This document shows, piece by piece, positions 3,715-49,604 of a stretch of DNA of 57,597 nt. The stretch lies in the NCBI GenBank assembly GCA_963575745.1, contig CAUYUJ010000014.1, positions 62,001-119,597 on the forward strand. Reading direction: 5' to 3'. The position numbers and the translations under genes are program-made. Each line of letters opens with the position of its first letter. The stretch's first letter is position 1. Below the pieces are notes generated by a model. That model searched no databases. It was given only the letters and a program-made list of their open reading frames with translations, and had not been told where the DNA came from. This DNA comes from Prorocentrum cordatum (lineage: Eukaryota).

Positions 3715-3746
<32 letters not shown>

Positions 3747-3783
3747 AGAGAGAAGAGAGAAGAGAGAGAGAGATAGAGATAGA

Positions 3784-3824
<41 letters not shown>

Positions 3825-4154: not shown

Positions 4155-4190
<36 letters not shown>

Positions 4191-4560
4191 CGAGGGAAGA
4201 GAGAGAGAGAGAGAGAGATATGACGAGAGAGAGAGAGAGAGAAAGAGAGAAGAGAGAGAGAGAGCGAGAGAGAGAGAGAGGGAAGAGTGAGAGGAGAGAG
4301 GAGAGAGACAAGACGAAGAATAGAGGAAGAGAGAGAGGAGAGAGAGAGAGAGAGTGAGAGAGAGAGAGAGGAGAGGTAGAGGCAGAGAGAGAGAGGACAG
4401 AGAGAGAGGCAGAGAGAGAGAGAGGCAGAATGACAGAGGAGAAGAGAGGCAGAGAGAGAGAGAGAGAGGCAAGGGGGGAAAGAGCGAGGCAGAGACAGAG
4501 AAGAGTGGCAGATGAGAGAGAGAGAGAGACAGAGAGAGCAGAGAGAGCAGAGAGAGAGGC
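3570..4560. repeat. Degenerate (GA)n polypurine microsatellite
   Basis: Directly visible. Confidence 0.95.
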
Positions 4561-4857
4561 AGCTCAGTCACACTTAAATCCAGATTCGTCCTCACCGAGT
4601 CCCACCACCAAGGGAGCGCCAGCAAGGAGATGCACATATGGGGATCCCCACGCAGTGAATAATTATTACTCTGACGCCTCCCACTCCTCCTCCTCCTTCT
4701 TCCTCCCGCTCGCGCCCCCCTCCTCCCAATGATAATCACCAGATAAGACAAGACAAGATAAGATACTACAAGATAAGATAAGATAGCACAAGATATGATC
4801 AGAAGAGATTTCAAGATAAGACAAGATAAGTTAAGCTCACACTCACACTCTCTCATG

Positions 4858-11872: not shown

Positions 11873-12620
<748 letters not shown>

Positions 12621-19213: not shown

Positions 19214-19367
19214 TCGGGGGCCACATGCGAACCCTACCCCTGCCCCCCACGATTTCTGAGGGGGAGGGTGGGGTTCACTTCGCTCGGGAGCTCCGGGTCG
19301 AAGTGAGCCCCGCCCTCCCCCTCAGAACTCGTGGGGGGTAGGGGTAGGGCTCGCATGTGGCCCCCTA
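19214..19367. mobile_element. About 153-bp palindromic MITE, same family as intron 2
   Basis: Near-identical to 20310-20462. Confidence 0.9.
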
Positions 19368-20309: not shown

Positions 20310-20467
20310 TAGGGGGCCACATGCGAACCCTACCCCTACCCCCCACGATTTCTGAGGGGGAGGGTGGGGTTCACTTCGCTCGGGAGCTCCCGAACGAAGT
20401 GAACCCCACCCTCCTCTCAGAAATCGTGGGGGGTAGGGGTAGGGCTCGCATGTGGCCCCCTATCACC
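20310..20467. mobile_element. Intron 2: 153-bp palindromic MITE plus one copy of the 5-bp TSD, non-canonical ends
   Basis: TCACC (20305-09), TAGGGGGCCACATGCGA...TCGCATGTGGCCCCCTA (20310-20462), TCACC (20463-67). Begins with an in-frame TAG. Confidence 0.92.
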
Positions 20468-27045: not shown

Positions 27046-28993
27046 GCGCTCGGGGGCGGCACTCGAGCCCTCTGCCCTTCAGTCGGGCCTGTACCCCTAC
27101 AGGGGGATTCTTCGACGAAGGATAAAAAATACCCCCAAAATGCACCAAAAATGCACGAGAAATGCCAAAACATATTCAAAAAACAGTCCCCAGACTATTT
27201 TTGGACTATTTTTTTGAAGTATTTTTCATTTGTCGACAATCCTCCTGTAGGGAGACAGGCCCGACTCAACTCTACCCTGAGACCCGACGCTCCAACACAA
27301 GTTTTGTGGAGCGGCTGGATTTGGGCAGTCTGCGGCCTCGGGGGGCCCTCGCCAGGCCTCGGGAGCGTCCACAGAGCGACTCGGGAGGAAACGCCGGTCC
27401 CGGGGAAGTGGTCTGGACCTTCCCCCTGGGGCGGCGCTCGGTGGCGGAATTCGAGCCCTAGACGTAAGTCGGGCCTGTCCCTCTACGGGAGGGATATTCA
27501 AGAATTGTCCAAGAATAGTCTCGGGGCGGCGCTCGGCGGCGAAGTTCGAACCCTGTGCAGTGGGGGGCCATGCAAAAAAGCACCCTCCGTGCCTCCAGGG
27601 TGCCCTGGGGTTCTTGTGTTTCGATGGTTTTGCTTTGGAAAGCGCGACGCCCCCGCACCAAAAATCAACGGACGTCCTGGGGTCTCAGGATTGGGCTTCT
27701 TGTGGATGGTTCCTTGTGGACGGGCCTCCGCTGGACCCTCGCCGATCCACGATTTGGGCAGCTCGGTGGGCCGCGGGGGCAGTGCTCGGAATTCGTCGAA
27801 CACGTGGCGAAGTCCGAACCCTACCTGGGGATAGTACAAGCCACCCCTACCCCCAGCCAGGACCCCCTGGAGTACCAGGCCGGCAGGGGGGGTCCTGGCT
27901 GGAGGTGGGCATTGTGTTATGGGGCAAATGCCGGTCCCGCACCCAGCCAGGACCCCGCTGGATCACCAGGCCGGCAGGGGGGGTCCTGGCTGGGGGTGGG
28001 GATTGTGTTACGGGGCAAAAGCCAGCCCCGCACCCAGCCAGGACCCCCTGGATCACCAGGCCGGCAGGGGGGGTCCTGGCTGGGGGTGGGGATTGTGTTA
28101 CGGGGCAAAAGCCAGCCCCGCACCCAGCCAGGACCCCGCTGGGTCACCAGGCTGGCAGTGGGGGTCCGGGCTGGAGGTGGGGATTGCGTTGAGGGGTAAA
28201 AGCCACCCCCGCACCCAGCCAGGACCCCGCTGGACCACCAGGCCGGCAGAAGGGGTCCTGGCTGGAGGTGGGGATTGTGTTGAGGGGTAAAAGCCGGCCC
28301 CGCACCCAGCCATGACCTCCTGGATCACCAGGCCGGCAGGGGGGGTCCTGGCTGGAGGTGGGGGTTATGTTGAGACCCAGCCAGCCAGAACCCCCTGGAT
28401 CACCAGGCTGGAAGCGGGGCTCATGTCTTGAGGTGGAGGTGGGGATATTGTATTGAGGGGCAAACGCCAGCCCCGCTTTCAGCCAGGACCCCCTGGATCA
28501 CCACGCCGGCAGCGGGGGTCCTGGCTGGACAGGCTGGAGGTGGGGATTGCGTTGAGGGGCAAAAGCCAGCCCCGCACCCGGCCAGGACCCCCTGGATCAC
28601 CAGGCCGGCAGTGGGGGTCCTGGCTGGAGGTGGGGATTGCGTTGAGGGGTAAATGCCGACCCCGCAGCTAGCCAGGACCCCCTGGATCACCAGGCCGGCA
28701 GGGGGGGTCCTGGCTGGAGGTGGGGATTGCGTTGAGGGGTAAACGCCGGCCCCGCACCCAGCCAGGACCCCCTGGATCGCCAGGCCGGCAGTGGGGGTCC
28801 CCTCTGGGGGTGGGGGTGGGTTGTGCTGTCCTCCATCGATGGCTGGGTTGTCCTCGGGGTGGGGCTGGGTTGTGCTGGGGGTGGGGGTGTGGCTGGGGCT
28901 GGGGGTGGGTTGTGCTGTCCTCCTGCACCTGCCCCCCATCGATTCGGGAGAACCGATGGCCGTTTGGGACAGGGCTCGGGTGTCGCCGCTCAG
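27046..28993 (+). mobile_element. Intron 12 (GC-AG), introner-like with nested MITE and satellite
   Basis: Direct repeat GGCGCT (27045-50 and 28993-98); imperfect TIR GGCGGCACTCGAGCCCT / AGGGCTCGGGTGTCGCC. Confidence 0.78.
27840..28800. repeat. About 90-bp satellite with an internal hairpin, about 10 copies
   Basis: Each unit contains CCAGCCAGGACCCC and its reverse complement GGGGTCCTGGCTGG. Confidence 0.92.
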
Positions 28994-29055
28994 GCGCTGT
29001 GCGTCCTGGCGGCCCTCGGCGCGCGGGGCGTGGAGGCGGAGGAGGCCCCGCGCGG
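28994..29055 (+). CDS. CAT-like transporter exon 13 (3' end uncertain)
   Basis: ALCVLAALGARGVEAEEAPR continues the helix of exon 12 in frame; donor position not resolved. Confidence 0.65.
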
Positions 29056-31264
29056 GACCTCCGGGGCTCGAAGCGCAAAGCAAGAGCGGCATATCGTCGG
29101 GGGGCTGAACAAGGAACCCTTCTCGTTGGGGAGGGGCCCCGTGCTCCTCAATTGTTTCGCAGCTTGCCTTAGGTTGTCCTTAGGCCTTCGATGGGGAATC
29201 GAAGTTTAACTTATGGAGCACTTCTTGGAGGTTCGCGCGGATTCCTTGGATCGGCGCTGGGCTCCCCTTGGCGGCGCCTCCGGCGCCGCCCTGGGCGCGA
29301 TCCGCGCGCTCCGCGCGCCGATCCAAGAAACCCGCGCGGACCTCCGAGAAATTATGTGTCTGTCGGTTTTGGTTCCTCTCGGTCGGTATCGTTTAAACGA
29401 TCCCCATCCCCATCCCCATCCCCTTCGAGACCCCACCAAATTACCACCCCAGTTGGGCACACCCCTCGAAGCCCGAAGGGAGCGGCCTATATCCCCATCT
29501 AGGGCTAATCGGCCAGTGGGGCCCAGGCCGCGCCGCTGGGGATGGGGATCGGTTGAACGATACTCACTAGGGGCGGCCCAAGTCATCCCCCGAGCGTTCT
29601 CATAGCAGTGGCAGCACACGTGCGCATGCATGCACACCGATACTGAACCCCGCACGCCAGCGCCCTCCGAATTCGTCCTCGAAGGCCTTCGCGGCGAATG
29701 GCCTTGACGGCGGCCTCGCCTCGAGGTGGGCCCGGGCTCCGAGGGGTCCTCGGCCTGTGGCTGGCGGCAGAGGGCTGGTGTTAAGTCGGGCACGTCCCTC
29801 CACAGGAGGAATATTCAAAAAATAGTCAAAAATAGTCAGGCGACGATTTTTGGTTATTTTTGGATTCTTTCGGAGTGTATTTTGAGTATTGTTTTTTCTC
29901 GCCCCACATCCCCCTGTAGGGGGAGGCGCCCGACCTAAGGTCGGTGGCATGGGTGTGGCTCTCGGCCAGGCGCTTCGGGAAGCTGGCCCGGCCCGTCTCG
30001 TTTCGGAGCCCTGGCGCCGCCGCTGTTTGCCTTCAAGCTGCCCCGAGCTTGTTTTGAGCCTGTTCTTCGAGTGCCTTTTGCCTGCGCCTTTCTTGCCTCT
30101 GACTTGTGTCGAACCTGCCATTGGCTTGCTTCCCGGCTTGCTTTCGGCACGCCAGCATATTCAACTGGCTTGCGCTCGTGGTGTTCCAGCTTGATTTTGG
30201 CTTGCCGGGGGAGGAGGAGGAGGAGGTGGAGGAGGAGGAGGAGGAGGAGGAAGAGGAGGAGGAGGAGGAGGAGGAGGAGGAGGAGGAGGAGGAGGAGGAG
30301 GAGGAGCTGACGTGGTGAACTCAGATCCGCCGAGCTGGTACCTCCTGGCGTAGGCTGGCACGAGCCTCTGCACGTGCCGCATAGCTCGCCGGTGCCACGC
30401 GGGCGAGCGCGATCGCGGCTGCGCGCCTGTCACGAGGCCGCCCCAGAGGGGCCTGGGGGCTGAGGTGTGCGGGCGGCCTGAAGGAGGAGGAGGAGGAGGA
30501 GGAGGAGGAGGAGGAGGAGGAGGAGGAGGAGATACCCGCCCAACGTAAAACAAACAAGAGGAGGCGGAGGAGGAGGAGGAGGAGGAGGAGGAGGAGGAGG
30601 AGGAGCATCGTTGTAATTCGAATAGGATGTCAACAACATAGTGGATGTTGCCCAACGTTTTTTGAGCCGAACCTACGAAATATTACGTATCATGTTCGTA
30701 GATCTGCGACGTATTCTTTCGATGCTTTGACGAAGGTCGTCTCGTCGTCTGTCGTCGATCTTGTACTCGAGCAACGCGCGCGCACGGCCCTCAAGGAGGA
30801 TCCTTCGCAGCCGCCTTGGGCATCACCTGCTGTGGGCTGCATTCCCATAGCGCCGCGGAGTTGTAAGGCACGCTCCAGCTCAGTGCCCTGTGTGAGCTGC
30901 GCCAGTACTGCCGTGCGTCCAGCACACCATACCTCGAAAGCGGCCAGGCCCTCCTCTCCTCCTTCTCCTCATCCTTCCTCCTCCCTCTTACTTCCTCCCT
31001 ACTTTTTAGCCTCCTCTCTCTTCTCTCCTCTCCTCTCTCCTCTTTCTCCTCCTTCTCCTTTTCCTCCTCCTCCTCGTCCCATTCCTCCTCATCCTCCTCT
31101 CCCTCCCCTTCTCCTCCTCCTCCTCCTTCTCCTCCTCATCCTCCTTCTCCTTCTCCTTCTTCTTGTCCTTTTCCTTCTCCTTCTCCTTCTCCTCCCCCTC
31201 CTCCTCCTCCTCTTTATCCTTCTTCTTTTCCCTGCTCCCCCTCCCTTCTCCCTCCTGCTCCTCC

Positions 31265-33070
31265 CACAGGGTCAAAGGCCTAGTACCGGACACCCAGGTG
31301 TGCCCGGCCTGCAGTCTCCCCTTTGGCTCACGCGCCAGTCTCATGCAGCACCTTTGTTTCGACTCTTTCATATGTGCTCTCTACCTCCTCTGCCATTCCC
31401 AACGCCTTCCCCAGGAGCAAATCGCCGCGCTTGCTATGCAACGCTGCGAAAATGCCAAACTACAAGTGAAGTCAGGCGTAGGTCGCTGGCGTGTTGCATT
31501 ACCGGCACATCGTGCCAAGCGTGCTACCACCCAGCACTTTCGTGACTTTGCCAAACACCTGTCGCAAGCGGACGCTCGCGCCATAATGGCGGTTACCGAC
31601 TACGCGCTGGACTCTGCAGCCGTCTCTTTACTTTTTCCCGCCGATGTTCCTCCGCCACAACCTCCTCCTCTTCCTGCGCTGCCTGAATGGCCATTTCAAC
31701 CGAAGGATTATTCTGGTCTAGCGACCAGCGAAATTCCAGCCCGTATCAGGCGCAAGGAAATATTCATTCTCAATCTTTTTTCTGGCCGCAGGCGCGAAGG
31801 GGATATCCAGCATCACCTGGAATCATTCACGCCTGACCCCTCGATAGAGGTACATATACTGTCGGTCGATATTGCTATCGATCCCGACTCAGGCGATCTC
31901 ACCAAGTCGGAGACCATCAAGCTCTGGCAACAACATATTTATGCCGGTAGAGTGGTTGTTTCAGGTGGGGGCCCACCTTGCGAAACCTTTTGCGCGGCCC
32001 GCTGGAAGCCCAACGGACCACCGCCGCTGCGCACTACCGAGCACTACTGGGGCATCCCCAACGCTACGCCCAAGCAATCCCGCCAATTACAGATAGCCAA
32101 CTTGCTACTCGCTTCATTGGTCCTCCTCTTTGCCGCTCATTTGGAAATGGGCACCTCGGCATGGATGGAACATCCATGCCCTGCCCACTGGGAACCCAGG
32201 GCGCAGCCTAGCTGGATATGGAGGCCTTTAATGGCCCTGGCTGCTGCACCGGCGGTCCGCACCACGGACATTGACCAGTGCATGTTTCAGCCGTCTTGCC
32301 GCCCTCCTAACGAATTCGGCAAAGCCCCCACGCGCTTGCTATCGCTCCGCCTTCCCTCGCTCCCAGCGCTCCTAACTAACCGTCCCCAAGGGACCAAGTG
32401 CACGCACCCACGGGGGTCACATCGTACACTTCTAGGTAAGGACGAGAATGACCGCTTTTTCACTGCAGACAAAAAGACCTATCCTTCTGCCCTTTGCGAA
32501 TGTCTCGCCCAGGCTATATACCAGGACGTCATTTTACCATTTGTTGACGACCCACAGGATCCTCCTCCCCAGACGGACCCCTCGGTTCTGGCTCCCCTTC
32601 TCCGCTTCTCCGCATCCATGACCAGCGACTTTTGGCTAGGCCCCGACTTCGTTGATTCCTCCGCCCCTCGCACCCGTGCTAAAGTGGATGGGGAGCTGGA
32701 CCGCTTCCGCAGACTTTTGGCTCTCACCAGGCCCCGCGAGCCGCGGCGCCATAGCGACCTCCCCTCAGAGGCTCACGAGCAGCTTGATCCCGCCGATCAG
32801 GACTCGGAAGCGGAACAAGAGGCCATGCACTTTTTGGGCACAGCCCCCATTTTTCCCTCCACCCTCCCTCCGCCGCCACCCCCGCCCTCCCTAACTCTGG
32901 ATCAGAAAAGGCGCATCCAGTGCAATAGGGAACGGGCCAGACAAATCAGGGCCGAGCGTTCCCGCCAAGCGGCACGCCCCGTCCCGCTCACGGGCATTTC
33001 CCTCTCTCACATGTGGCACCCTGCTTCGCCCGCCCCGCAGGACTTCAACGCCGACATCTTCGACACTTAG
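31265..33070 (+). CDS. C-terminal part of a retroelement polyprotein: zinc finger plus C5 cytosine methyltransferase domain (5'-truncated)
   Basis: CPAC-x12-H finger at about 31301. Motifs in order: LNLFSG (I), SVDI (II), GDLT (III), GGPPCETF (IV, catalytic PC, about 31967-31990), MEHP (VI-like), DQCMF..K.PT (VIII-like), TYPSALC (X-like). The first 34 aa of the tracked ORF are microsatellite. Confidence 0.88.
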   Translation, partial: HRVKGLVPDTQVCPACSLPFGSRASLMQHLCFDSFICALYLLCHSQRLPQEQIAALAMQRCENAKLQVKSGVGRWRVALPAHRAKRATTQHFRDFAKHLSQADARAIMAVTDYALDSAAVSLLFPADVPPPQPPPLPALPEWPFQPKDYSGLATSEIPARIRRKEIFILNLFSGRRREGDIQHHLESFTPDPSIEVHILSVDIAIDPDSGDLTKSETIKLWQQHIYAGRVVVSGGGPPCETFCAARWKPNGPPPLRTTEHYWGIPNATPKQSRQLQIANLLLASLVLLFAAHLEMGTSAWMEHPCPAHWEPRAQPSWIWRPLMALAAAPAVRTTDIDQCMFQPSCRPPNEFGKAPTRLLSLRLPSLPALLTNRPQGTKCTHPRGSHRTLLGKDENDRFFTADKKTYPSALCECLAQAIYQDVILPFVDDPQDPPPQTDPSVLAPLLRFSASMTSDFWLGPDFVDSSAPRTRAKVDGELDRFRRLLALTRPREPRRHSDLPSEAHEQLDPADQDSEAEQEAMHFLGTAPIFPSTLPPPPPPPSLTLDQKRRIQCNRERARQIRAERSRQAARPVPLTGISLSHMWHPASPAPQDFNADIFDT

Positions 33071-33080
33071 CTGGCGTCTC

Positions 33081-34178
33081 ATGTCCAGACGGCCATGGGT
33101 GCTGGTGCCGCGTGAAGCCAGGCCAAAGCATCCCCCACCGGGCCAATTTCGGTCCGCCTCAGCTCCTCCACCCCTACTTTCGCCTGCCCAATTCGCCCAG
33201 GTAGCCAAAGCGGTGCAGCGCTCTCTGTCCAGCACTCCTTCAGCCTCAGATCCCCCGCGGCCGCCTGGCGATTTCAGCGGCCCCCCCATGGGTCGAGGCA
33301 GGCGCATCTACGGGGCCACTTTTCATCCTCCGCCACCTCCGCCCGCCTTGCCTCCCTTGCCGCCCCCAGATCATCCCAGGGTGCCTGCCAAAGCAGCCAT
33401 TCCGGAAGGCTGGATAGGCCAGGCTGCTTCTCCTTTTTCTCCACCCCTTTCAGCGGGCACCTCGCCTCCGCCCCCGCGCGAGCCTCGCAAACAGTCTCGT
33501 AAAGCTGCGCCACACAGGAGCCAGCCGAGCAGGGCTTCTAGTCCCCCAGCATCGCCTAGAAGGCTGGATCAGGTGGACGACGCCTCATATTCCTCTGCCT
33601 CCTCACCATTTCCTCCGCATGACTCTCCAGAGCCGGCGGAACAGTCCGCTGCGCCCCGCGCCTCTGCAACTCGCAAGCGCAAGCAGGTCTCATTTGCGGA
33701 CGAGTTCACGGCCAAATCCCCTAGGGTGGCCTATAATTCGCGCTTACGCACCGAGCCGCGCAAAAGCGCGCTCAAGCAGCCGGCGCCGCTACGCAGAGAA
33801 CCTGCGGAGGCACAAAGCAGCCCGCAGGAGTCCCTCGGCCCGCCGTCACCTCCAGCCTCTCCTCCCCCTAGGCACCATAGGGCTCGCAAGGCCAAGGCGC
33901 ACCGCGCGGCCCATGCAGCTCAGCGCTCACACTCGCCTGCCAAAGCGTCTGATGCAGCCTCGGACGAGCAGCGCAGTACAGTTCTCAAGGAGCACGAGAA
34001 TAGAATTGCCCAGCTCAAAGAGGAGCATAGGCAGGACCAGCTCCGTATCGACAGGATACACAGGGAGCGCCTCAGGCTTCAGTTGCGAGAAGGCGAAAGC
34101 CTTTCGCATTGCGGTCAGCGTCTTTCGCCCAGGAGGCCGCGTAAACCTCATGAAGGAGGTGATGCTGCCAGGCGCTAG
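33081..34178 (+). CDS. Pro/Ser-rich protein with a C-terminal coiled-coil-like segment, function unknown
   Basis: 365-aa ORF starting 10 nt after the methyltransferase stop; segment VLKEHENRIAQLKEEHRQDQLRIDRIHRERL. Confidence 0.6.
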   Translation: MSRRPWVLVPREARPKHPPPGQFRSASAPPPLLSPAQFAQVAKAVQRSLSSTPSASDPPRPPGDFSGPPMGRGRRIYGATFHPPPPPPALPPLPPPDHPRVPAKAAIPEGWIGQAASPFSPPLSAGTSPPPPREPRKQSRKAAPHRSQPSRASSPPASPRRLDQVDDASYSSASSPFPPHDSPEPAEQSAAPRASATRKRKQVSFADEFTAKSPRVAYNSRLRTEPRKSALKQPAPLRREPAEAQSSPQESLGPPSPPASPPPRHHRARKAKAHRAAHAAQRSHSPAKASDAASDEQRSTVLKEHENRIAQLKEEHRQDQLRIDRIHRERLRLQLREGESLSHCGQRLSPRRPRKPHEGGDAARR

Positions 34179-34269
34179 ACCTTTGCCAGGCAGCTAGCCC
34201 TCAGCCTAAGCCTAACCTCTCCCTCTTTCCTCTTATCAGCTCCCTTTTCTGCCTCATCCCCATCGGGCC

Positions 34270-34962
34270 ATGAGGAGCGAGCCCAGTATCCTGGGCAACG
34301 CCGACGCAGACGAGGACATGCCCGCTGCTGAGGCGTACCCGGGACGACACTTAGATCTGCGCAGCATCTCGCCACCAGCCTCTCGTTTGGCTTCCTTATG
34401 GAAGCATTTGGCTGAGCGGCTTCTTTTGGCTCACCAGCAAGTCTACCGCTTTCTCAGCGGCGGCGCGAGGCGCCACGCACTCATTCTGTCTCCCACCACG
34501 GTGTACCAGCATACTGCGGTACCCCAGTGGCAAGCCACATGGCAGCTCGAGAGCGGGCCGCCCGCGTGGCCACACGCGCGCGCTTACGTAGGCCCTGTGC
34601 TTCACCTAGATTTGCCCACGGCCGTTAATCGCACACTCGAGCGCTGGCATGGGCGCTGGCGCGAGGCCAACTCCCCTAACCTACTCCACATTTACCCTCA
34701 ATGTGCAGCGGGGGACGGCCCCTATGATGCCCGTTTCTCACCCACCATAGGGCTAGTTACTGTTTACGTGCCTGATCAGCTTTTTCTGGACCTACTCCAA
34801 TCGGGGGCCTGGGAGCAGTCCTCCCTCATCCCTCATCGTCTTTTGCAGGATGCAGCGGCTGGCAGCCCCATCCTTATAGACTTCCAGGCCATGATCATGG
34901 TTCGGCCATTCTGCCTCCCGTTGTCCTACCTCGCTCGAATCCTCCGTCTCCCCGAACCCTAA
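34270..34962 (+). CDS. Hypothetical protein, 230 aa
   Basis: ATG in GCCATG context, complex globular-like composition, preceded by a pyrimidine tract and AG. Confidence 0.6.
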   Translation: MRSEPSILGNADADEDMPAAEAYPGRHLDLRSISPPASRLASLWKHLAERLLLAHQQVYRFLSGGARRHALILSPTTVYQHTAVPQWQATWQLESGPPAWPHARAYVGPVLHLDLPTAVNRTLERWHGRWREANSPNLLHIYPQCAAGDGPYDARFSPTIGLVTVYVPDQLFLDLLQSGAWEQSSLIPHRLLQDAAAGSPILIDFQAMIMVRPFCLPLSYLARILRLPEP

Positions 34963-34973
34963 TCCCTCAGGCC

Positions 34974-35396
34974 ATGCCGACCCCAGAGGCGCAGCACCTG
35001 CCGCAGTTCGAGCACGGCGACTTCCGCTGCGCCCCCACTGAGGCAGTGCCACCACCGCCTACAGTCGTGCAGTGGCTGGTAGTGATAACGACAGGCCACA
35101 TTTCGCTTTGGTCCCCATTGCCCATCAATGTAGGGCTCCTAATGGAGCAATTCCATGGGCAGGAGACCAGGCTGCCATCCTCTGCGGAAAGGCCGCGCTT
35201 TCTTCACCTCCCTATTCTACAGGAGATTGATGCACGGCCCATCCTATTTGGCACGGGCATACCCTACCGCACCGGCCTTTCGCTGCGGGTCAACATGCGT
35301 AGCGGTAACATCCTCATCCCTATAGACTCCGCACCGGGCCAAGCATGCATCAGTCGGCCCGTCAGGAGGGTCCTCCTCACACAGATGCAAGCATAA
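34974..35396 (+). CDS. Hypothetical protein, 140 aa
   Basis: ATG in GCCATG context 11 nt after the previous stop; complex composition. Confidence 0.55.
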   Translation: MPTPEAQHLPQFEHGDFRCAPTEAVPPPPTVVQWLVVITTGHISLWSPLPINVGLLMEQFHGQETRLPSSAERPRFLHLPILQEIDARPILFGTGIPYRTGLSLRVNMRSGNILIPIDSAPGQACISRPVRRVLLTQMQA

Positions 35397-35494
35397 GCCA
35401 GCTAGGTTTCACTCATATTTGGCCGTTGGCTCATGGGCTACTTCTTTTTGTTCCCTCGGCACTCCCCCCTTCTCTCAGCGCGCCCCGCGCCGCC

Positions 35495-35974
35495 ATGGTG
35501 CCCATGCCTCCCGCGGGCGGTTCCGCAGCGGCCGCGTCGGATGCGGGCGCGGCCGAGGCCAGCAGGGCGTCGCCCAACACGCGGGAGCTCTTCGGCCTCT
35601 CAGGAGACACGTATGCTGGTTCGGCATGGCAGGGCTCCCAATACACGGCCGCCACGCGGGAGTTCAAAAAGTGGTGGCCTTCCACATACCCTGGCGAGTG
35701 GAAGATGCCCAACGGCATGCTCTACCCGTTCGTTTGGAAGCTCAAGTCGCTGGACGTCATCGACGGCCAGGTCGTCGAAACCTGGGACTGGGAGTGGATC
35801 GAGACCCCAGGCCTGGCGACCATCTCTGAGGTGGAGGCCATGCTGCGGGCCCACTGCAACCAGCAGCAGGCTGCCGCGCAAGAGGCCCAGGCGCGAGCGG
35901 CGGCGACAGCGGCAGGTCTCTCGGCGCTCTCGGCTGCCGCCCGCACTCTCAATCCGTCGCCCTTCGGTGCCTGA
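35495..35974 (+). CDS. Hypothetical Trp-rich protein, 159 aa
   Basis: GCCGCCATGG start; GC3-rich codons; core FKKWWPSTYPGEWKMPNGMLYPFVWKLKSLDVIDGQVVETWDWEWIE. Confidence 0.65.
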   Translation: MVPMPPAGGSAAAASDAGAAEASRASPNTRELFGLSGDTYAGSAWQGSQYTAATREFKKWWPSTYPGEWKMPNGMLYPFVWKLKSLDVIDGQVVETWDWEWIETPGLATISEVEAMLRAHCNQQQAAAQEAQARAAATAAGLSALSAAARTLNPSPFGA

Positions 35975-36061
35975 GCGAGCCACATAGAGTGCTGCGCTGC
36001 ATCAGTCAGCGCCCTGCTAGGTCGTCCTAAGCGACCTCGGCGCAACTAGCAGCGCGCCCGC

Positions 36062-36885
36062 TTAGGTGGTGGGCTCGCCTAATACTCTCCTTTTGTCCAT
36101 CTTCCCTATTCTGGTTTCTCTTTACCTCGGCAGCCCACCACCTAAACAGCTGGAGCCATGCCGCTTCAATTCAAGGTCGGTCGAGCCGTCCTGCATAGTT
36201 GAGTAGTAGGCCACGCAAGTCTAGCAGCATCCAGCCTATCCCGACATAGTGCGGCTCAGCAACTTTGAGCAGCCCCGCTAACAGTGAGGCGGCTAAACGC
36301 CGCTCACATATCTCAATTCGCAGACTCGCCACGGCTGAGTCTTCGCGCATAGGTGGTGGGCTAGCACACTTCTCGGATCCTGGTTTATATGCAGCCCACC
36401 ACCTATACAGCCCAAGCCACCACATGAGCCAAACTCTAACAAAGGAGACGCCGCGTCTCCAATTTAAGGTCGGCCGAGCCGACATGCAGCCCGCCGCAGT
36501 GGGTACTTCAGGTACACATTCTCACTGCAACTCTTTCGGCGCCAGTCGGCACCATCTCAGGTCAACATGGGATGGGCGCCCATGGTGCAACCGTCAATGC
36601 GCCACACAGGGGCGGAGCCAGCCTAATACATACCTCGGCAGCCCACCTAGTCACTCTTTTTTCTACCGGCCCCCCCTTGGAGGGCCTGTGCAAGAGTAGC
36701 TGCCAGTCATGGGCGCGACTTCTCACTTTGCCGCACGAGTGCGGCCAACGCGGCACATTTTAGCAGCCTCGCTAAAAAGCGATCGGCTAAGCTCACACAG
36801 CAATTCGCAGACTCGCCGCGGCTGAGTCTCCTAGGTGGTGAGCTGGCTTAATACTCTTGGTTCACCTTGGCAGCTCACTACCTAG
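36062..36885 (+). ncRNA. Repeated structured-RNA hairpin motif (3 clear copies, 1 degenerate)
   Basis: 14-bp stems at 36062-75/36132-45, 36349-62/36393-406 and 36831-44/36872-85, with covarying pairs and G-U wobble. Confidence 0.6.
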
Positions 36886-37944
36886 ACAGTCCTAGCCAGA
36901 CTGCCACGGCCAAACCTAAGCTGTGGCAAGCAAGGACGATGCTACAGCACATCCCCGCCGAGTAACTCTCGGCCAAGGCGGCCAGCGAAGGTGCCATATA
37001 TGCATACAGGCACCATGCCCTAGTGCGTCTTGGCTGTGCGGCTGAGTCAAGGCCGCGGCAAGCATAAGTGCCTCGTGGGAGGACCGCGGCACTGTGCCTC
37101 GGCTTGTCTCTTTGGCCCTCGTCCAGGTGTAGCAGGGTCCCCTTGGTCCCTGTGTGCCTGTGAGGGGCCACGCGGAGGTGGGTCTCTGTTGTCTGGTCTC
37201 GGCTAGCGCCCAGGCACACCCACCTCCCCGTCGCGGACGGCCCGTGCAGGCCTTTCAGCTGCAGCGGCCGCCCTGCAGCACGGCAATGCCATTCTGGCCC
37301 TCCTGCCTCCCCCCGCCTCTTTTGGATTCCCCCGCTCTTCCTCCAGTCCAGCTCTCCTCCCCTGGAGGTTTGGACAGCCGCGCGGCGGCCTGGCCAATTT
37401 GGCCTTCCGTCCAGTTCTTCCCTCTCCTTCAGCCGACCGAAACTTGGACGGCACACCTAGGCAGGTCTCTCCTTTTCCAGCCTTGCACTGCTCTCTGCCT
37501 CGAGGGCTGCCCTGCTATGGGCAACGAAGCAGGGCCCCGCTGATGTCTCTCTTCGCACGGCGCTGCAAACTCCTCCTCTCTCGTATATGATTCCTCTCTT
37601 CCCCTCCCGCAGCGCCAATACCTCTCTCCCGACAGTTTTCGGGACGAGAGCGGAAGCAGCTCAGCGTCCATGCTCTCGGGCTTCTCGCGTGCAGCCTGTG
37701 CCAGTCCTGTTGGCCGCTGCGCTCAAGCTACCTGCAACGAGCTTAGTACAGTCAAGCCCTCCTGCTCCTCCTCCTCCCTTCTCCTCCTCCTCCTCCTCCT
37801 CCTCCTCCTCCTCCCTCCTCCTCCTCCTCCTCCTCCTCCTCCCTCCTCCTCCTCCTCCTCCTCCTCCTTCTCTTTCTTCTCCTCCTCCTCCTCTTTCTTC
37901 TCCTCCTCTGGGCAGTGGAGGTGGGGGGCGGCCTCGGTACCGAG

Positions 37945-38059
37945 GAGGCACCGGCGCGCGGACGACGTGGGCGGCGGCGGCGCTGGCTTCCGTGCCCCTG
38001 GAGTCCCGTACGTGCCTGGCGCCGCCATGGTGCTGAATTTCATGCTGATGGCGACCATC
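37945..38059 (+). CDS. CAT-like transporter exon 14 (boundaries approximate; final exon not found)
   Basis: ADDVGGGGAGFRAPGVPYVPGAAMVLNFMLMATI matches the CAT C-terminal motif FxxPxVPxxPxxxxxxNxxLM. Confidence 0.85.
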
Positions 38060-38109
38060 TGGGGGGCGGCTGGACTCCTCCCTCCTCCCTCTTTCTTCCT
38101 CCTCCTCCT

Positions 38110-40762
<2,653 letters not shown>

Positions 40763-40764
<2 letters not shown>

Positions 40765-43700
40765 GGGTCACACCTGACTTATGGCCGGTGAGGTTTGGGT
40801 TTGGGTTTGGGTTTGGGTTGTGGTTTGGGTTTGGAAACCAATCGTTTTAATGAGTTTTCTATTGGGAACCAATTGTTTGGCTTCGTTTTCTATTGAACAC
40901 CTATGGTCTTTATTCGTTTTCTATTGGGAACCAATGGTTTAAATTAGTTTTCTATTGGGAGCCAATGGTGTTTATTTGTTTTTCATTGGGAACCAATGGT
41001 TTTTATTAGTTTCCGAGTGGAAACAGATTCTTTTTATAGTTTTCTATTGGAAACCAATGGTTTTCATTTGTTCTCTATTGGAAACCAAGGGTTTTCCCCA
41101 ACCCTCCGGCGTTGGGTTCTCGTTTTGAATCGAGCAGTGCTCGCGCGTCGCCTTCCTTACTTCCTTCCTTCCTTCCCGCCCCCTGCCGCCCCTCTCTTCC
41201 CCCTTGCCTTTCGCCTCGCTCGTCGCTGCGTGCCAGCTGGGGGGCTGCGATCTGTGAAAAGGTCGCCACTTTCGAGGCCTGCTGGGAGGCCCAGCACAGT
41301 GGGTACTCACGGCAGACTCAAATGGGACCTCGCCATCCCTGGGGGGCTGCGATCTGTGAAGCTGTTGCCACTTTCGAGGCCTGCTGGGGGGCCCAACGCA
41401 GTTGGTACTCACCGCAGACTCAAATGGGACCTCGCCATCCCTGGGGGGCTGCGATCTGTGAAGCCGTCGCCACTTTCGAAGCCTGCTGGGGGGCCCAGCA
41501 CAGTGGGTACTCACGGCAAACCCAAATGGGACCTCGCCGTCCCTGGGGGGCTGCGATCTGTGAAGCTGTCGCCACTTTCGAGGCCTGCTAGGGGGGCCCA
41601 GCACAGTGGGTACTCACGGCAGACTCAAATGTGACCTCGCCATCCCTGGGGGGCTGCGATCTGTGAAGCTGTCGCCACTTTCGAGGCCTGCTGGGGGGGG
41701 CCCAGCACTGTGGATACTCACGGCAGACTCAAATGGGACTCGCCATCCGTGGGGGCTGCGATCTGTGAAGGTGTCGCCACTTTCGAGGCTTTGCTGGGGG
41801 GCCCAGCGCAGTGGGTACTCACGGCAGACTCAAATGTGACCTCGCCATCCCTGGGGGGCTGCGATATGTGAAGCTGTCGCCACTTTCGAGGCTTGCTGGG
41901 GGGCCCAGCGCAGTGGGTACTCACGGCAGACTCAAATGTGACCTCGCCATCCCTGGGGGGGCTGCGATCTGTGAAGCTGTCGCCACTTTCGAGGCCTGCT
42001 GGGGGGCCCACCGCAGTGGGTACTCACGGCAGACTCAAATGGAACCTCGCCATCCTTGGGGGGCTGCGTTCTGTGAAGCTGTCACCACTTTCGAGGCCTG
42101 CTGGGGGGCCCAGCACAGTTGGTACTCACGGCAGACTCAAATGGGACCTCGCCATCCCTGGGGGGCTGCGATCTGTGAAGCTGTTGCCACTTTCGAGGCT
42201 TGCTGGGGGGCCCAGCACAGTGGGTACTCACGGCAGACTCAAATGGGATCTCGCCATCCCTGGGGGGCTGCGATCTGCGAAACTGTCGCCACTTTCGAGG
42301 CATGCTGGGGGGCCCAGCACAGTGGGTACTCACGGCAGACCCAAATGGGACCTCGCCATCCCTGGGGGGCTGCGATCTGTGAAGCTGTCGCCACTTCGAG
42401 GCCTGCTGGGGGGCCCAGCCCAGTGGGTATTCACTGCAGACTCAAATGGGGCCTCGCCGTCCATGGGGGGCTGCGATCTGTGAAACTGTTGCCACTTTCG
42501 AGGCCTGCTGGGGGGCCCAACACAGTTGGTACTCACCGCAGACTCAAATTAAACCTCGCCATCCTTGGGGGGCTGCGATCTGTGAAACTGTCGCCACTTT
42601 CGAGGGCTGCTGATGGGGCCCAGCACAGTGGGTACCCACCGCAGACTCAGACTAGACCTCGCCATCCCTGGGGGACTGCGATCTGTGAAACTGTCGCCAC
42701 GTTCAAGGCCTGCTGGGGGGCCCAACACAGTGGGTACTCACCGCAGGTTCAAAATGGACATCGCCATTCCTGGGGGGCTGCGATCTGTGAAACTGTCGCC
42801 ACTTTCGAGGCCTGCTAGGGGGGCCCAGCACAGTGGGTACCCACACGCAGATTCAAATTAGACCTCGCCATCCATGGGGGGCTGCGATCTGTGAAGCTGT
42901 CGCCACTTTCGAGGCCTGCTGGGGGGCCCAGCACAGTGACGCCACCCGCAGATTCAAATTAGACATCGCCATCCCTGGGGGGCTGCGATCTGTGAAGCTG
43001 TCGCCACTTTCGAGGCCTGCTTGCGGGGCCCAGCACAGTGACGCCACACGCAAATTCAAATTAGACCTCGCCATCCCTGGGGGGCTGCGATCTGTGAAAC
43101 TGTTGCCACTTTCGAGGGCTGCTGGGGGGGCCAGCACAGTGACGCCACACGCAGATTCAAATTAGACCTCGCCATCCCTGGGGGGCTGCGATCTGTGAAA
43201 CTGTCGCCACTTTCGAGGCTTGCTTGCGGGGCCCAGCGCAGTGACGCCACACGCAGATTCAAATTAGACCTCGCCATCCCTGGGGGGCTGCGATCTGTGA
43301 AACTGTCGCCACGTTCGAGGCCTGCTTGCGGGGCCCATCACAGTGACGCGTCTCAAGTAACTTACACATCAAGCTGATTGTCCATACAAGTTTCGGCCAA
43401 CTCATCGTTTCCATTGATACAAATGGGTCGGGTACGTCACAGGGTAATTATTTGTTTTTGGGAGGCAATGGTTTTACTTAGTTTTCTGTTGGAAACCAAT
43501 GGTTTAATGAGTTTCCATTGGGAACCAATTGTTTCTATTAGCTTTCTATTCGGAACCAATGGTTTTAATTAGCTCTCTATTGGGAACCAATTGTTTCTAT
43601 CAGTTTTCTATGGGAAACCAATGGTTTCTATTAGTCTTCTATTGGCAACCATCAGTTTTTTTATTTATTAGTTTTCCATTGGGAACCAATGGTTTTCATT

Positions 43701-45622: not shown

Positions 45623-45945
45623 TTAGGACCCGATGAGCCCTCTCAAGGCGCAGTCGAGCTGTTGGATGAACTCCGCGTGCGGGTCCACAAACATGCACTG
45701 ATCAACCCTGGTGACGCTAGCGCCGCTGAAGCCTGCAATGCACGCGAATTCAGGGAATTGTGGGAGCTTCCAGGCAGACGGGGCTCCCTCCCTCCAGGAC
45801 ACCGCGGGGTGCTCCATCACAGCACACGTCTTAGTAATGGCAGCGGCGAGCAAAAACCTGGCGGTCGTCCCGAGCAACTCATTGCCAATACGGTCGGACC
45901 GAGGTATAAGATCGAGGCCGGTTCGGGGAGGGTGCCCCCATGTTC
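45623..45945 (-). pseudogene. Degenerate fragment of a retroelement-type C5 methyltransferase
   Basis: WGHP..IGNELL..AVMEHP..W..PSAW..VDQCMF aligns by eye with WGIP..IANLLL..AWMEHP..W..PSW..IDQCMF of the 31265-33070 ORF; motifs I-IV and X are absent. Confidence 0.7.
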
Positions 45946-46249
45946 TCTGTGCCTGATGGATGTTCTTGTACATCGTTGGAAAAGTGGCACCCTCGGATGT
46001 TCTTCAGTTCGGGCCGGCGTAGGGTCTCGTGTTCTTGAATCGAGTACGGGATCGACTACAGAGTCGATCTACCCCAAAATTGATGCCCCGTCGAATCTAC
46101 GACACATGACCACAGTGCTCCGTCGATCTACATGCCCGTTCTGCGCATTTCCTCATGGGCTCGACGAGAAAATCAGTACTGGGGTTCGGCGGCGTGCAGG
46201 GGGGGTGGGAACGAGAAGGAGAAGGCCTTCTCAGAAGGCGGCCAGACTT

Positions 46250-49252: not shown

Positions 49253-49604
49253 CAGGGGGCCACGTGCGAGCCCCCCTGCCTTCGGATGCACCTCCTGGGA
49301 GGTCAGATTCTGATTTTGCCCTGGTCCGGAATCCCGCTTCTTAATCCCGCTTAATCCCGCTTAATCCGGCTTAATCCTGCTTGGTCCGACGCCCACTCCG
49401 GCGTAATAGCTTCCAAATGGGGCTTAATCCTCCTTAATCTTTCCGACGAAAACCTCCCAGTAGTTGCCTCCTCGCCCTATCCCCCACGATTTCTGAGGGG
49501 GAGGGCGGTGTTCACGTCGTTCGGGAGCTCCCGAGCGAGGTGAGCCCCGCCCTCCCCCTCAGAAATCGTGGGGGGTAGGGGTAGGGTTCGCACGCGGCCC
49601 CCTA
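49253..49604. mobile_element. Interrupted third copy of the intron-2 palindromic MITE
   Basis: Left end CAGGGGGCCACGTGCGAGCCC at 49253; body and right end ...GCGGCCCCCTA at about 49475-49604; TTAATCCCGC 10-mers lie between. Confidence 0.75.

What the first reader, a model, noticed from the sequence alone, without database searches (positions are those of the whole stretch)
36062..36885. Covarying RNA hairpin repeated in the retroelement 3' region
Seen: three stems of N-TAGGTGGTG(G/A)GCT / AGC(C/T)CAC(C/T)ACCTA-N'. The closing pair varies T-A, A-T, C-G; an inner G-C becomes A-T in copy 3, which also has G-U pairs that work only on the + strand. Each stem continues after a 1-nt bulge with three more pairs, around loops of different length and sequence. 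Linked motifs also recur: the hairpin AATTCGCAGACTCGCC(A/G)CGGCTGAGTC (about 36315 and 36802) and AATT(C/T)AAGGTCGG(T/C)CGAGCCG (about 36168 and 36462). Inference: a selected RNA structure of unknown class, such as an RT-recognition signal, processing site, ribozyme or small-RNA precursor. A guide role for the methyltransferase is speculative.
Basis: partly seen in the sequence, partly recalled or inferred. Interest (0 to 1): 0.75.

Follow-up and report, generated by a model that had tools for sequence, protein, structure and literature searches.

The report
Repeated stem-loop in a LINE tail
Three copies of a bulged hairpin that kept its base pairing through matching changes on both arms sit in the long untranslated tail of a truncated jumping gene (a LINE retrotransposon), most likely as a docking site on its RNA, though a purely DNA-level palindrome is not excluded.

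Summary
Three hairpins (36062-36145, 36349-36406, 36831-36885) have a 14-bp stem, a 1-nt bulge and 3 more pairs. All 51 pairs are canonical. There are four double (compensatory) changes and two G-U pairs. A fourth copy (~36605-36652) is decayed. They belong to diverged sub-repeats of roughly 215-290 nt that also carry the two linked motifs.

The host is a multi-copy element. Its zinc-finger plus divergent C5-methyltransferase-like ORF is homologous to the C-terminus of giant ORFs that carry RNase H, an APE endonuclease and RT. This points to a 5'-truncated LINE. Symbiodiniaceae-type relatives have a short 3' UTR with a strongly covarying 5-bp stem-loop. One other GC-rich relative (L004) also has diverged repeats with long, covarying hairpins 3' of the methyltransferase-like domain.

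My best reading (0.4) is a cis-acting, protein-bound RNA stem-loop of the LINE transcript, multiplied by internal duplication.

Weak points:
- Only 3-4 copies could be aligned.
- No RNA data are available.
- The hairpins lie 0.9-1.7 kb from the presumed 3' end.
- Both strands fold about equally well.
- The genome holds other palindromic repeats.

There is no Rfam match, so ribozyme and small-RNA roles have no support. I rate it a new variant of a known kind, of moderate interest.

The parts
30950..31212 (+). (CCT)n microsatellite on the 5' flank of the element copy
   Evidence: TRF. The same unit and orientation occur on the 3' flank.
31265..33070 (+). ORF1 remnant: C2H2 zinc finger (~31301-31375) plus a divergent C5-methyltransferase-like domain (31706-32545). 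This is the 5'-truncated C-terminal part of a LINE polyprotein.
   Evidence: 15 homologues. Invariant SG.RR..D, GPPCE and EHP motifs. tblastn from giant RT ORFs hits only 31706-32545. P0002 (60% identical) extends N-terminally into the post-RT region. The AF2 model matches C5-MTases by Foldseek and VIA-align. Pfam finds no family.
32895..35393 (+). Frames ORF2 (32895-34175, Pro-rich plus coiled coil) and ORF3/4 (34216-34959, 34776-35393). Function unknown. They sit in three different reading frames.
   Evidence: No Pfam family. No match in the 81 related loci. Covered by multi-copy contigs.
35345..35974 (+). ORF5, a small conserved Trp-rich protein. The homologous part starts near the Met at 35495.
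   Evidence: 14 representatives at E <= 1e-3, and 7 at E <= 1e-10, mostly 59-182 aa. Alignment A4. AF2 pLDDT 82.3, six strands plus a long helix. No known fold or family.
35975..37757 (+). Long 3' untranslated region of the element copy
   Evidence: No conserved ORF. Multi-copy contigs cover it at least to 37500. The end at 37757 is inferred from the (CCT)n flank.
36062..36145 (+). Hairpin H1: 14 bp, bulge c, 3 bp, 49-nt pyrimidine-rich loop
36168..36188 (+). Motif B, copy 1 (weak small hairpin)
   Evidence: Fold z = -0.78.
36315..36341 (+). Motif A, copy 1 (6+2 bp hairpin AGACTCGC/GC-GAGTCT)
   Evidence: Fold z = -2.9.
36349..36406 (+). Hairpin H2: 14 bp, bulge a, 3 bp, 23-nt loop
36461..36481 (+). 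Motif B, copy 2
   Evidence: Fold z = -1.46.
36605..36652 (+). H3', a decayed fourth hairpin copy. The loop motifs and 3' arm are recognisable, the 5' arm is no longer complementary, and the 3' arm has a 4-nt deletion.
   Evidence: Fold z = +0.46. CM R2 scores 48.7 bits, but this row was in the training set.
36802..36828 (+). Motif A, copy 2
   Evidence: Other genomic copies read A at 36818, as in copy 1.
36831..36885 (+). Hairpin H4: 14 bp with an A-U replacing G-C and one G-U, bulge g, 3 bp with a U-G, 20-nt loop
   Evidence: Other copies read C at 36848, which makes the inner pair C-G.
37758..37908 (+). (CCT)n microsatellite on the 3' flank
   Evidence: TRF.

Best explanation
The hairpins are paralogous copies of one stem-loop module in the ~1.8-kb 3' untranslated region of a 5'-truncated, multi-copy non-LTR (APE-type LINE) retrotransposon. 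Full-length relatives of this element encode RNase H, an APE endonuclease, RT, a C2H2 finger and a divergent C5-methyltransferase-like domain. The module was multiplied by internal tandem duplication of a unit of roughly 215-290 nt, built as hairpin - motif B - spacer - motif A.

After the duplications, pairing of the 14+3-bp bulged stem was kept by compensatory substitutions, while the loop length drifted. Two loop-edge motifs (TAATAC and ACCTYGGC) stayed. I read this as selection, in the active master lineage, for a single-stranded nucleic-acid structure. The most likely form is a protein-binding stem-loop on the LINE RNA that helps the element's own proteins (the RT polyprotein or the small ORF5 protein) recognise and package their transcript, with several copies adding avidity.

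Shown: the structures, their compensatory changes, the sub-repeat organisation, the multi-copy nature, the LINE affinity, and that relatives use covarying 3' stem-loops.
Inferred: that the structure acts as RNA, that a protein binds it, and which protein.
For: 1. All 51 pairs in three copies are canonical. There are four double substitutions (closing pair T-A/A-T/C-G, pair 11 G-C to A-U, inner pair C-G to A-U) and two wobble pairs. P is about 1e-6 to 1e-4 under independent changes. Fold z is -4.2 to -5.1.

2. The module is directional, not a symmetric palindrome. It has a conserved bulge position with a variable base, TAATAC at the 5' loop edge, ACCTYGGC at the 3' loop edge and ACAGYNNNAGCCA after the stem. 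In another genomic copy the H2 5' arm is also followed by CTAATAC (loose end at 36365).

3. Arms are 82-93% identical between copies. The surrounding unit is ~70% identical, or cannot be aligned at all.

4. Across other genomic copies, 6 of the 8 listed indels in 36062-36886 fall in the H1 loop and none in a stem. Of 12 listed base differences only one touches a stem position, and it turns U-G into C-G. Only 40 of 1,067 differences and 12 of 89 indels were shown.

5. Retroelement setting:
- The ORF1 domain matches the C-terminal end of giant ORFs (E 1e-24 to 1e-33).
- Longer homologues carry RVT_1 (38.7 and 30.0 bits), Exo_endo_phos (40.9 bits) and RNase H.
- 303-618 contigs per run map at 80-100% identity.

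6. The superfamily uses 3' RNA stem-loops. In 26 relatives a 5-bp stem right after the stop codon shows double changes in 4 of 5 pairs, with 5 broken cells in 130.

7. An independent GC-rich relative, L004, has the same layout. Two homologous ~97-nt hairpins (67% identical) show at least 4 double changes, and a third hairpin has 18-bp arms. All lie 0.8-1.4 kb 3' of the methyltransferase-like domain.
Against: - Only 3 intact copies and 1 decayed copy, all in one element, could be compared. On the 4-row alignment 39 of 500 shuffles reach the observed covariation score.
- No RNA run holds the region, so transcription, transcript ends and structure are unknown.
- H1 and H2 fold as well or better on the - strand (-39.0 and -40.0 against -32.1 and -32.6). 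Only H4 argues for the + strand.
- The hairpins lie 0.9-1.7 kb upstream of the presumed 3' end. The recognition stem-loops of relatives sit next to the tail, and by recollection so do those of stringent LINEs.
- The covariance model of the relatives' 3' module finds nothing significant in the window (best E 0.91).
- Copy number of the unit varies between genomic copies. Some copies join motif A to downstream sequence without a hairpin (joints 36342>36831 and 36341>36954). One window copy (H3') has decayed. So not every hairpin is needed.
- The window holds other palindromic repeat families, so a DNA-level tendency to make or keep palindromes is possible.
- The window copy itself has no RT.
Confidence: 0.4

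Rival explanations
1. A DNA-level palindromic VNTR with no RNA function. A short quasi-palindrome inside a tandemly duplicated UTR segment is kept perfect by template switching or snap-back during replication or reverse transcription, which copies a change from one arm to the other.
For: - Both strands fold about equally well for H1 and H2.
- Unit number varies among genomic copies, and some copies lack a hairpin.
- H3' has decayed.
- The window holds other palindromic families: 27 perfect non-low-complexity inverted repeats against 0.1 expected, including ~100-130-nt near-perfect palindromes at 19241, 20317 and 49472.
Against: - The module is asymmetric, with conserved directional loop-edge motifs, a fixed bulge position and a conserved 3' flank.
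- G-U pairs are tolerated in H4 but no C-A or other mismatch occurs in 51 pairs.
- An unrelated hairpin sequence in L004 shows the same pattern.
- Relatives have a clearly covarying RNA-type stem-loop.
- In the long palindromes of the same window, differences between copies also give mismatches rather than only compensated pairs.
Confidence: 0.25
2. An RNA structure with a host-facing role rather than RT/RNP recognition. Candidates are transcript stability, nuclear export, 3'-end formation, or control of translation of the small downstream ORF5.
For: - The same structural evidence as the best explanation.
- The position is internal to a long 3' UTR, starting ~90 nt after the ORF5 stop and far from the tail.
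Against: There is no direct evidence and no RNA data. The terminator-like scan found no more than chance in 35900-37800 (1 site against 1.3 expected).
Confidence: 0.12
3. Inserted foldback, MITE-like or introner-like elements of the kind described in Amoebophrya (8-20-nt terminal inverted repeats forming a hairpin). The covariation would then reflect different subfamilies whose two ends change together.
For: - Arm length (14 nt) and element size (55-84 nt) fit (PMC7789003, passages read).
- Each hairpin can be read as GT...AG (GTGGTG...ACAG) with a pyrimidine-rich loop in H1.
- The element's relatives occur in dinoflagellate-type sequence.
Against: - The flanks are homologous between copies (motif A before H2 and H4, ACAGYNNNAGCCA after all three). 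So the hairpins were duplicated with their surroundings, not inserted separately.
- No flanking direct repeats.
- The CM of the hairpin finds no copy elsewhere in the window or in 941,524 bases of related loci.
- No listed joint in four DNA runs removes a hairpin precisely, as would be expected if it were spliced before retrotransposition.
Confidence: 0.08
4. A precursor of small RNAs (hairpin siRNA or miRNA-like), made either by the host as a defence or by the element.
For: Stable hairpins in a repeated element.
Against: The stem has only 14+3 bp with a bulge, shorter than a ~21-nt duplex. The loops are large and variable. No small-RNA data are available.
Confidence: 0.05
5. A self-cleaving ribozyme or other known structured RNA class.
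For: None beyond the presence of structure.
Against: cmscan of 35000-38000 against 4,227 Rfam families at E <= 1 gave one chance row (Ms_IGR-4, 22.2 bits against gathering 55). No tRNA-like gene was found. A simple bulged hairpin lacks the multi-helix cores of known ribozymes.
Confidence: 0.03

Closest known systems
3' stem-loops of stringent-type LINEs recognised by their own ORF2/RT protein (zebrafish L2-type LINEs, PMC4176376, abstract seen in listing; R2 3' UTR RNA, PMC11194090, abstract seen)
   Same: A stem-loop in the 3' untranslated part of a non-LTR retrotransposon whose pairing, rather than its sequence, is conserved. Element-specific.
   Different: Here there are three to four tandem copies, the stem is larger and bulged, and the hairpins lie 0.9-1.7 kb from the presumed 3' end rather than next to the tail repeats. 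Binding and function are untested.
3' module of the Symbiodiniaceae-type relatives found here (alignment A3, model R1)
   Same: The same retroelement superfamily by the C-terminal methyltransferase-like domain, and a covarying 3' UTR stem-loop.
   Different: That module is a 5-bp stem, 20-70 nt after the stop codon, followed by CAGYA, GAAAG and an A-rich or short-repeat tail. R1 does not detect it in the window, and R2 does not detect the window hairpin in those loci.
SymbioLINE-Dnmt retrotransposons (PMC5890265, passages read)
   Same: A LINE-type element of dinoflagellates carrying a cytosine-methyltransferase-type domain, with conserved 5' and 3' UTRs and no poly-A tail. The authors raise possible RNA methylation.
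   Different: There the DNMT lies in an ORF upstream of the RT ORF (passage read). Here the domain is C-terminal to RT, gets no Pfam family, and further small ORFs follow it. The six-term search of that paper's text found no occurrence of 'hairpin'.
Amoebophrya introner elements (PMC7789003, passages read)
   Same: Short repeated elements whose 8-20-nt inverted ends form a hairpin. Marine alveolate setting.
   Different: Introners are dispersed in introns with 3-5-nt direct repeats. These hairpins have homologous flanks, have no direct repeats, and are confined to one LINE 3' region.

Membership tests
LINE 3' UTR recognition stem-loop (stringent type) | Lies in the 3' untranslated region of a non-LTR retrotransposon | tested here: met
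   The hairpins lie downstream of the last conserved ORF (stop at 35972-35974). The element's ORF1 is homologous to the C-terminus of ORFs with Exo_endo_phos, RVT_1 and RNase H. The window copy itself has no RT.
LINE 3' UTR recognition stem-loop (stringent type) | Sits at or next to the 3' end or tail repeats, where reverse transcription starts | tested here: not met
   The hairpins end at 36885. Multi-copy contigs continue at least to 37500, and the (CCT)n flank starts at 37758.
LINE 3' UTR recognition stem-loop (stringent type) | Pairing conserved through compensatory change | tested here: met
   Four double changes, two wobble pairs and no broken pair in 51 pairs. With only 4 rows the formal score is weak.
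LINE 3' UTR recognition stem-loop (stringent type) | Bound by the element's RT/ORF2 protein and needed for retrotransposition | not testable with these tools
   Needs binding and retrotransposition assays.
Known Rfam families (ribozymes, sRNAs, cis-elements) | Covariance-model match at or near the gathering score | tested here: not met
   One row only, 22.2 bits against gathering 55, E 0.88.
miRNA-like or hairpin small-RNA precursor | Stem long enough to hold a ~21-nt duplex | tested here: not met
   14+3 bp interrupted by a bulge.
miRNA-like or hairpin small-RNA precursor | Discrete small RNAs from the arms | not testable with these tools
   No RNA holder was listed.
MITE / foldback / introner element | Terminal inverted repeats | tested here: met
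   14-nt arms.
MITE / foldback / introner element | Flanking direct repeats (target-site duplication), unrelated flanks between copies, and dispersed copies | tested here: not met
   No direct repeats. Flanks are homologous. No copy was found elsewhere in the window or in 81 loci. The whole genome could not be searched.
C5 cytosine methyltransferase (for the ORF1 domain named in the finding) | Family profile match (Pfam DNA_methylase) | tested here: not met
   No Pfam family, even at E <= 10. No family for homologues beyond zinc fingers. The PDB profile search found only zinc fingers.
C5 cytosine methyltransferase (for the ORF1 domain named in the finding) | Catalytic Pro-Cys motif and acidic motif on a Rossmann-type fold like that of solved C5-MTases | tested here: met
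   Invariant GPPCE and EHP in 14 sequences. The Foldseek top rows are C5-MTases (E 3e-3, prob 0.9-0.97). VIA-align gives Z 8.1-10.1, 185-231 residues aligned, rmsd 4.4-6.1, and all 50 rows shown are C5-MTases. The model is of middling confidence (pLDDT 58.7 overall, 80-90 in the core).
C5 cytosine methyltransferase (for the ORF1 domain named in the finding) | Methyl transfer to cytosine in DNA or RNA | not testable with these tools
   Needs an enzyme assay.

The most novel reading that the evidence does not exclude
The repeated bulged stem-loops are the specific RNA targets or docking sites of the element's own divergent C5-methyltransferase-like domain, whose fold matches include Dnmt2-type RNA methyltransferases, or of the small ORF5 protein. 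On this reading the LINE marks or packages its own transcript through a dedicated protein-hairpin pair: a self-directed epitranscriptomic or packaging system in a eukaryotic retrotransposon.
Probability: 0.06. Interest if true: 0.85.

Novelty: new variant of a known kind. Interest (0 to 1): 0.45.

Why it matters
If the hairpins are bound by the element's proteins, they give a handle on how a large, little-studied group of protist LINEs picks its own RNA. This group carries a C-terminal methyltransferase-like domain and is abundant in marine samples.

The side results may matter as much as the hairpins:
- The methyltransferase-like domain is invisible to Pfam, yet sits at the end of RNase H-APE-RT polyproteins.
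- A conserved small 3' ORF has no known fold.
- Relatives carry a cleanly covarying 3' stem-loop that could serve as a family marker.

If the hairpins are only DNA palindromes, the finding is an ordinary variable repeat in a transposon tail.

Tried and rejected
- Whole genome: none is held for this window.
- Earlier findings: nothing by place or by sequence.
- The repeat finder on 28000-42000 was swamped by trinucleotide arrays and gave nothing usable.
- More copies of the hairpin:
  - The hairpin pattern in viral contigs gave 0 hits.
  - Motif A in metagenome contigs gave 0 hits.
  - The protein database searched with the open frame across H2 (36250-36696) gave no hit.
  - CM R2 found no match in 81 related loci and only the 4 training copies in the window.
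- RNA evidence: no RNA holder was listed among 18 runs, so nothing can be said on expression.
- The A1 search in viral contigs gave no relative.
- ORF2-ORF5 and the 3' region have no match in the 81 loci.
- Pfam gave nothing for ORF2-ORF5. The Atlas gave nothing usable for ORF3 or ORF5.
- Lead rejected, ORF5 as an ssRNA-phage coat-like hairpin binder. Foldseek's top rows were levivirus coat proteins, but at E ~0.3. VIA-align gave them only Z 2.2 over 36-39 residues, and the wide search was filled by the C-terminal helix.
- Lead not supported, a terminal stem-loop seen by eye at ~37722-37750 (AAGCT...AGCTT followed by AGTA) as the homologue of the relatives' module. R1 does not report it, and the region folds no better than shuffles (z = +0.46).
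- The ~110-nt AT-rich palindromes downstream of relatives sit at variable distances from the ORF end and are unrelated to the window hairpin.
- DIRS/PAT-like split direct repeats were considered. No tyrosine recombinase was found, the sub-repeats are only ~70% alike, and nothing at the 5' side matches them.
- PDB sequence search with a giant relative ORF gave nothing useful.
- Strand test by counting G-U pairs was not decisive.
Full report
**What is there**

In the whole window the two arm patterns occur only there, three times each.

Written out pair by pair:

| Copy | 5' arm | Bulge | Inner 5' | Loop | Inner 3' | 3' arm |
|---|---|---|---|---|---|---|
| H1 | TTAGGTGGTGGGCT | c | GCC | 49 nt | GGC | AGCCCACCACCTAA |
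| H2 | ATAGGTGGTGGGCT | a | GCA | 23 nt | TGC | AGCCCACCACCTAT |
| H4 | CTAGGTGGTGAGCT | g | GCT | 20 nt | GGC | AGCTCACTACCTAG |

All 17 pairs are canonical in each copy. Relative to H1, H2 differs at 4 paired positions, which make two double changes. H4 differs at 6, which make two double changes and two transitions that leave G-U pairs.

The RNA folds are -32.1, -32.6 and -29.3 kcal/mol, with z-scores of -5.0, -5.1 and -4.2. Both linked motifs occur exactly twice, at the places given.

A fourth, decayed copy lies at about 36605-36652. It keeps the loop-edge motifs and most of the 3' arm but no longer folds (z = +0.46).

**Is it more than chance?**

- If the 4 and 6 differences had fallen at random on the 34 paired positions, all pairs would stay canonical in both copies with probability 1.4e-6 (kappa 1), 1.1e-5 (kappa 2) or 9.8e-5 (kappa 4), from 1e6 trials each.
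- The formal count on the four-row alignment, which includes the decayed copy and misplaces one base of H2, is underpowered. 90.5% of cells are paired against 30-54% when the partner is slid by 1-3 columns. 8 of 500 shuffles reach that pairing and 39 of 500 reach the covariation score.

So pairing is clearly non-random, but the sample is three to four paralogues in one element.

**The hairpins are parts of diverged sub-repeats**

- 36259-36419 aligns with 36753-36898 at 70% over 163 columns. The alignment runs through an upstream segment, motif A (27 of 28 identical), the hairpin and a conserved tail ACAGYNNNAGCCA.
- H1 and H2 share the tail, and H1 and H4 share the loop start.
- The order is H1 - B1 - spacer - A1 - H2 - B2 - spacer - H3' - spacer - A2 - H4. 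Hairpin-to-hairpin spacing is about 290, 270 and 215 nt.
- Arm identity between copies is 82-93%. This is higher than most of the unit but lower than motif A.
- The module is not a symmetric palindrome. The bulge position is fixed while its base varies. TAATAC sits at the 5' edge of the loop and ACCTYGGC at the 3' edge in H1, H3' and H4.

**What the surrounding element is**

A Pfam scan of 131 six-frame segments of the window found neither RT nor methyltransferase. Further evidence does place the region in a retroelement.

*The methyltransferase-like domain.*
- The frame 31265-33067 has 15 homologues with invariant SG.RR..D, S.D, GPPCE and EHP motifs.
- Its AlphaFold model has a mean pLDDT of 58.7, with 80-90 in the core.
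- Foldseek's top rows for the model are C5 cytosine methyltransferases (E 3e-3, prob 0.9-0.97).
- On a second look by VIA-align, all 50 rows shown are C5-methyltransferases (DNMT1, DIM2, DNMT3, M.HhaI, Dnmt2), with Z 8.1-10.1 over 185-231 residues.
- So the 'methyltransferase' of the finding is a divergent C5-MTase-like domain, not a member by profile.

*The link to RT.*
- In 80 metagenomic loci and one genome-collection locus this domain lies at the very end of ORFs of up to 3,670 codons. Three of the 8 ORFs I scanned show weak RVT_1 hits.
- Among 31 longer database homologues, the precomputed Pfam column lists RVT_1 for 8, RNase H for 4 and Exo_endo_phos for 3.
- My own scan of 8 of them gave RVT_1 at 38.7 and 30.0 bits, Exo_endo_phos at up to 40.9 bits and RNase H at about 30 bits, in the order RNase H - endonuclease - RT.
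- The closest partial homologue, P0002 (60% identical), continues N-terminally into the post-RT part of the giant ORFs.
- In the window only 31706-32545 matches those ORFs. Sequence upstream of about 31265 is a (CCT)n array, and the same array follows at 37758.

I therefore read 31213-37757 as a 5'-truncated copy of an APE-type LINE, possibly inserted into a (CCT)n tract. The boundaries are an inference.

*The element is multi-copy.* In four DNA runs 303-618 contigs map to 31300-37500 at 80-100% identity.

*Between the methyltransferase-like domain and the hairpins.* There are further frames without known families. The last, ORF5 (35345 or 35495 to 35974), is real. It has 14 representatives at E <= 1e-3, mostly small proteins of 59-182 aa, and a confident model of six strands and a long helix. 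No known fold matches it.

**Evidence from other genomic copies (contigs only, tables truncated)**

- Of the 40 base differences shown out of 1,067, 12 lie in 36062-36886. Only one of these touches a stem position: 36848 T>C, which turns the inner U-G of H4 into C-G.
- Of the 12 indels shown out of 89, 8 lie in that stretch. Six are in the H1 loop and none is in a stem.
- A loose end shows the H2 5' arm followed by CTAATAC in another copy, so the loop motif belongs to the family.
- Joints show copies with fewer or more units (36342>36831, 37265>36542).
- Some copies join motif A to downstream sequence without a hairpin (36341>36954, with 40 other letters between).
- No listed joint removes a hairpin precisely.

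**Evidence from relatives**

- I printed the first 160 nt after the stop codon for 43 loci. By eye I picked the 26 that share the pattern CCRAG - small hairpin - CAGYA - GAAAG - A-rich or short-repeat tail. The 17 left out have visibly different modules.
- On those 26, RNAalifold gives a 5-bp stem in which 4 of 5 pairs show double changes. The pair types are CG 16/UA 10; AU 14/GC 10/GU 2; CG 17/AU 6/GC 3; AU 9/CG 7/GC 5. Five of 130 cells are broken.
- So this LINE group does use a covarying 3' stem-loop next to its tail.
- The covariance model of that module (R1) finds it in 4 of 29 further loci. It finds nothing significant in the window (best E 0.91).
- One other GC-rich relative, L004, resembles the window instead. 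About 0.8-1.4 kb 3' of its methyltransferase-like domain lie two homologous ~97-nt hairpins (67% identical) with at least four double changes and one wobble. There is also a repeated flanking motif and a third hairpin with 18-bp arms. Their sequences are unrelated to the window's hairpins.

**How it most likely works**

The simplest account of all this has three parts:
- a stem-loop module in the LINE's 3' UTR was duplicated several times;
- in the active lineage, selection kept the stem, the bulge position and two loop-edge motifs;
- loop length, flanks and some copies were free to drift.

Such a pattern is typical of a protein-binding RNA stem-loop. For a LINE the obvious partners are its own proteins: RT template recognition or RNP assembly. 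I put this at 0.4.

Against it:
- the distance from the 3' end;
- the lack of any RNA evidence (no RNA holder was listed);
- the near-equal folding of both strands;
- the variable and dispensable copy number.

The main rival (0.25) is a DNA-level quasi-palindrome kept perfect by template switching. It gains weight from the many other palindromic repeats in the window. It is weakened by the asymmetry of the module and by the parallel in L004.

Lower-ranked readings:
- Introner or MITE-like insertions (PMC7789003, passages) fit arm length. They do not fit the homologous flanks, the lack of direct repeats or the confinement to this region.
- Ribozyme and small-RNA precursor roles have no support.

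**Comparison with what is known, and novelty**

- Structured 3' UTR elements recognised by LINE proteins are established (PMC4176376 and PMC11194090, abstracts seen in listing).
- LINEs of dinoflagellates with a DNMT have been described, with the DNMT in an ORF upstream of the RT ORF. The six-term search of that paper found no 'hairpin' (PMC5890265, passages).
- My searches did not turn up a description of a LINE with a C-terminal Pfam-negative C5-MTase-like domain, or of these hairpins. Three word searches cannot show absence from print.
- I rate the hairpin array a new variant of a known kind, of moderate interest. The covariation test across many copies is still to be done.

Noticed in passing
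window 45680-45967 (- strand): A second, more divergent remnant of the same methyltransferase-like domain (MEHPA...VDQCMF). It is matched by three relatives' ORFs at E 1e-6 to 2e-8, so another member of the LINE group lies in the window.
   Followed up: partly
window 19241-19340, 20317-20455, 49472-49585: Three copies of a ~100-140-nt near-perfect GC-rich palindrome (CCCCCCACGATTTCTGAGGGGGAGGG...), with folds of -99 to -140 kcal/mol. This is a foldback-type dispersed repeat. Differences between copies include compensated, wobble and mismatched positions.
   Followed up: partly
window 28000-28815 (similar units from ~27850): A 90-nt satellite (9 copies, 81% matches) in which each unit carries a 12-16-bp inverted repeat (CCAGCCAGGACCCCC / GGGGGTCCTGGCTGG).
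   Followed up: no
window 38111-40764, 41237-43000, 40831-41095: A very large (CTA)n array of 883 units, a 102-nt satellite (17 copies, 90% matches) that runs past 43000, and a 31-nt AT-rich repeat. The window is a repeat-dense region, and a 100-N gap lies at 12028-12127.
   Followed up: no
L003-L076, first 60-150 nt after the stop codon of the giant ORFs (alignment A3, model R1): A conserved 3' module of the Symbiodiniaceae-type relatives: CCRAG, a 5-bp stem-loop with double changes in 4 of 5 pairs, CAGYA, GAAAG, then an A-rich or (AAAGTG)/(AAATGG)/(AAAGG)-type tail. It could serve as a marker for the 3' ends of this LINE group.
   Followed up: yes
L004 4589-4685, 4828-4925, 5134-5216: An independent relative with diverged repeats carrying long hairpins with compensatory changes. 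Oddly, one reading frame stays open for 568 codons (3701-5404) right across these hairpins, although the translation looks non-protein-like.
   Followed up: partly
L019, L025, L003, L046, L049, L076 and others, 0.2-2.5 kb downstream of the ORF ends: An abundant ~110-nt AT-rich palindromic, MITE-like repeat (TACCCTCTGGTAA...CCATGG...TTACCAGAGGGTA), present several times per locus at variable positions. It is unrelated to the window hairpin.
   Followed up: partly
window 35345-35974 (ORF5) and proteins P0016-P0029: A family of small Trp-rich proteins (KWWP..Y...W.LPNG..YPFVW ... E.WTW.WVETPG) with a confident six-strand plus long-helix model. It has no Pfam family and no convincing structural match. 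Among the loci held, it occurs only in the window.
   Followed up: yes
window 36899-37065: In all four runs, contigs join 36898 to 37066 with one other letter between. So this 167-nt piece is absent from many other copies of the element.
   Followed up: no
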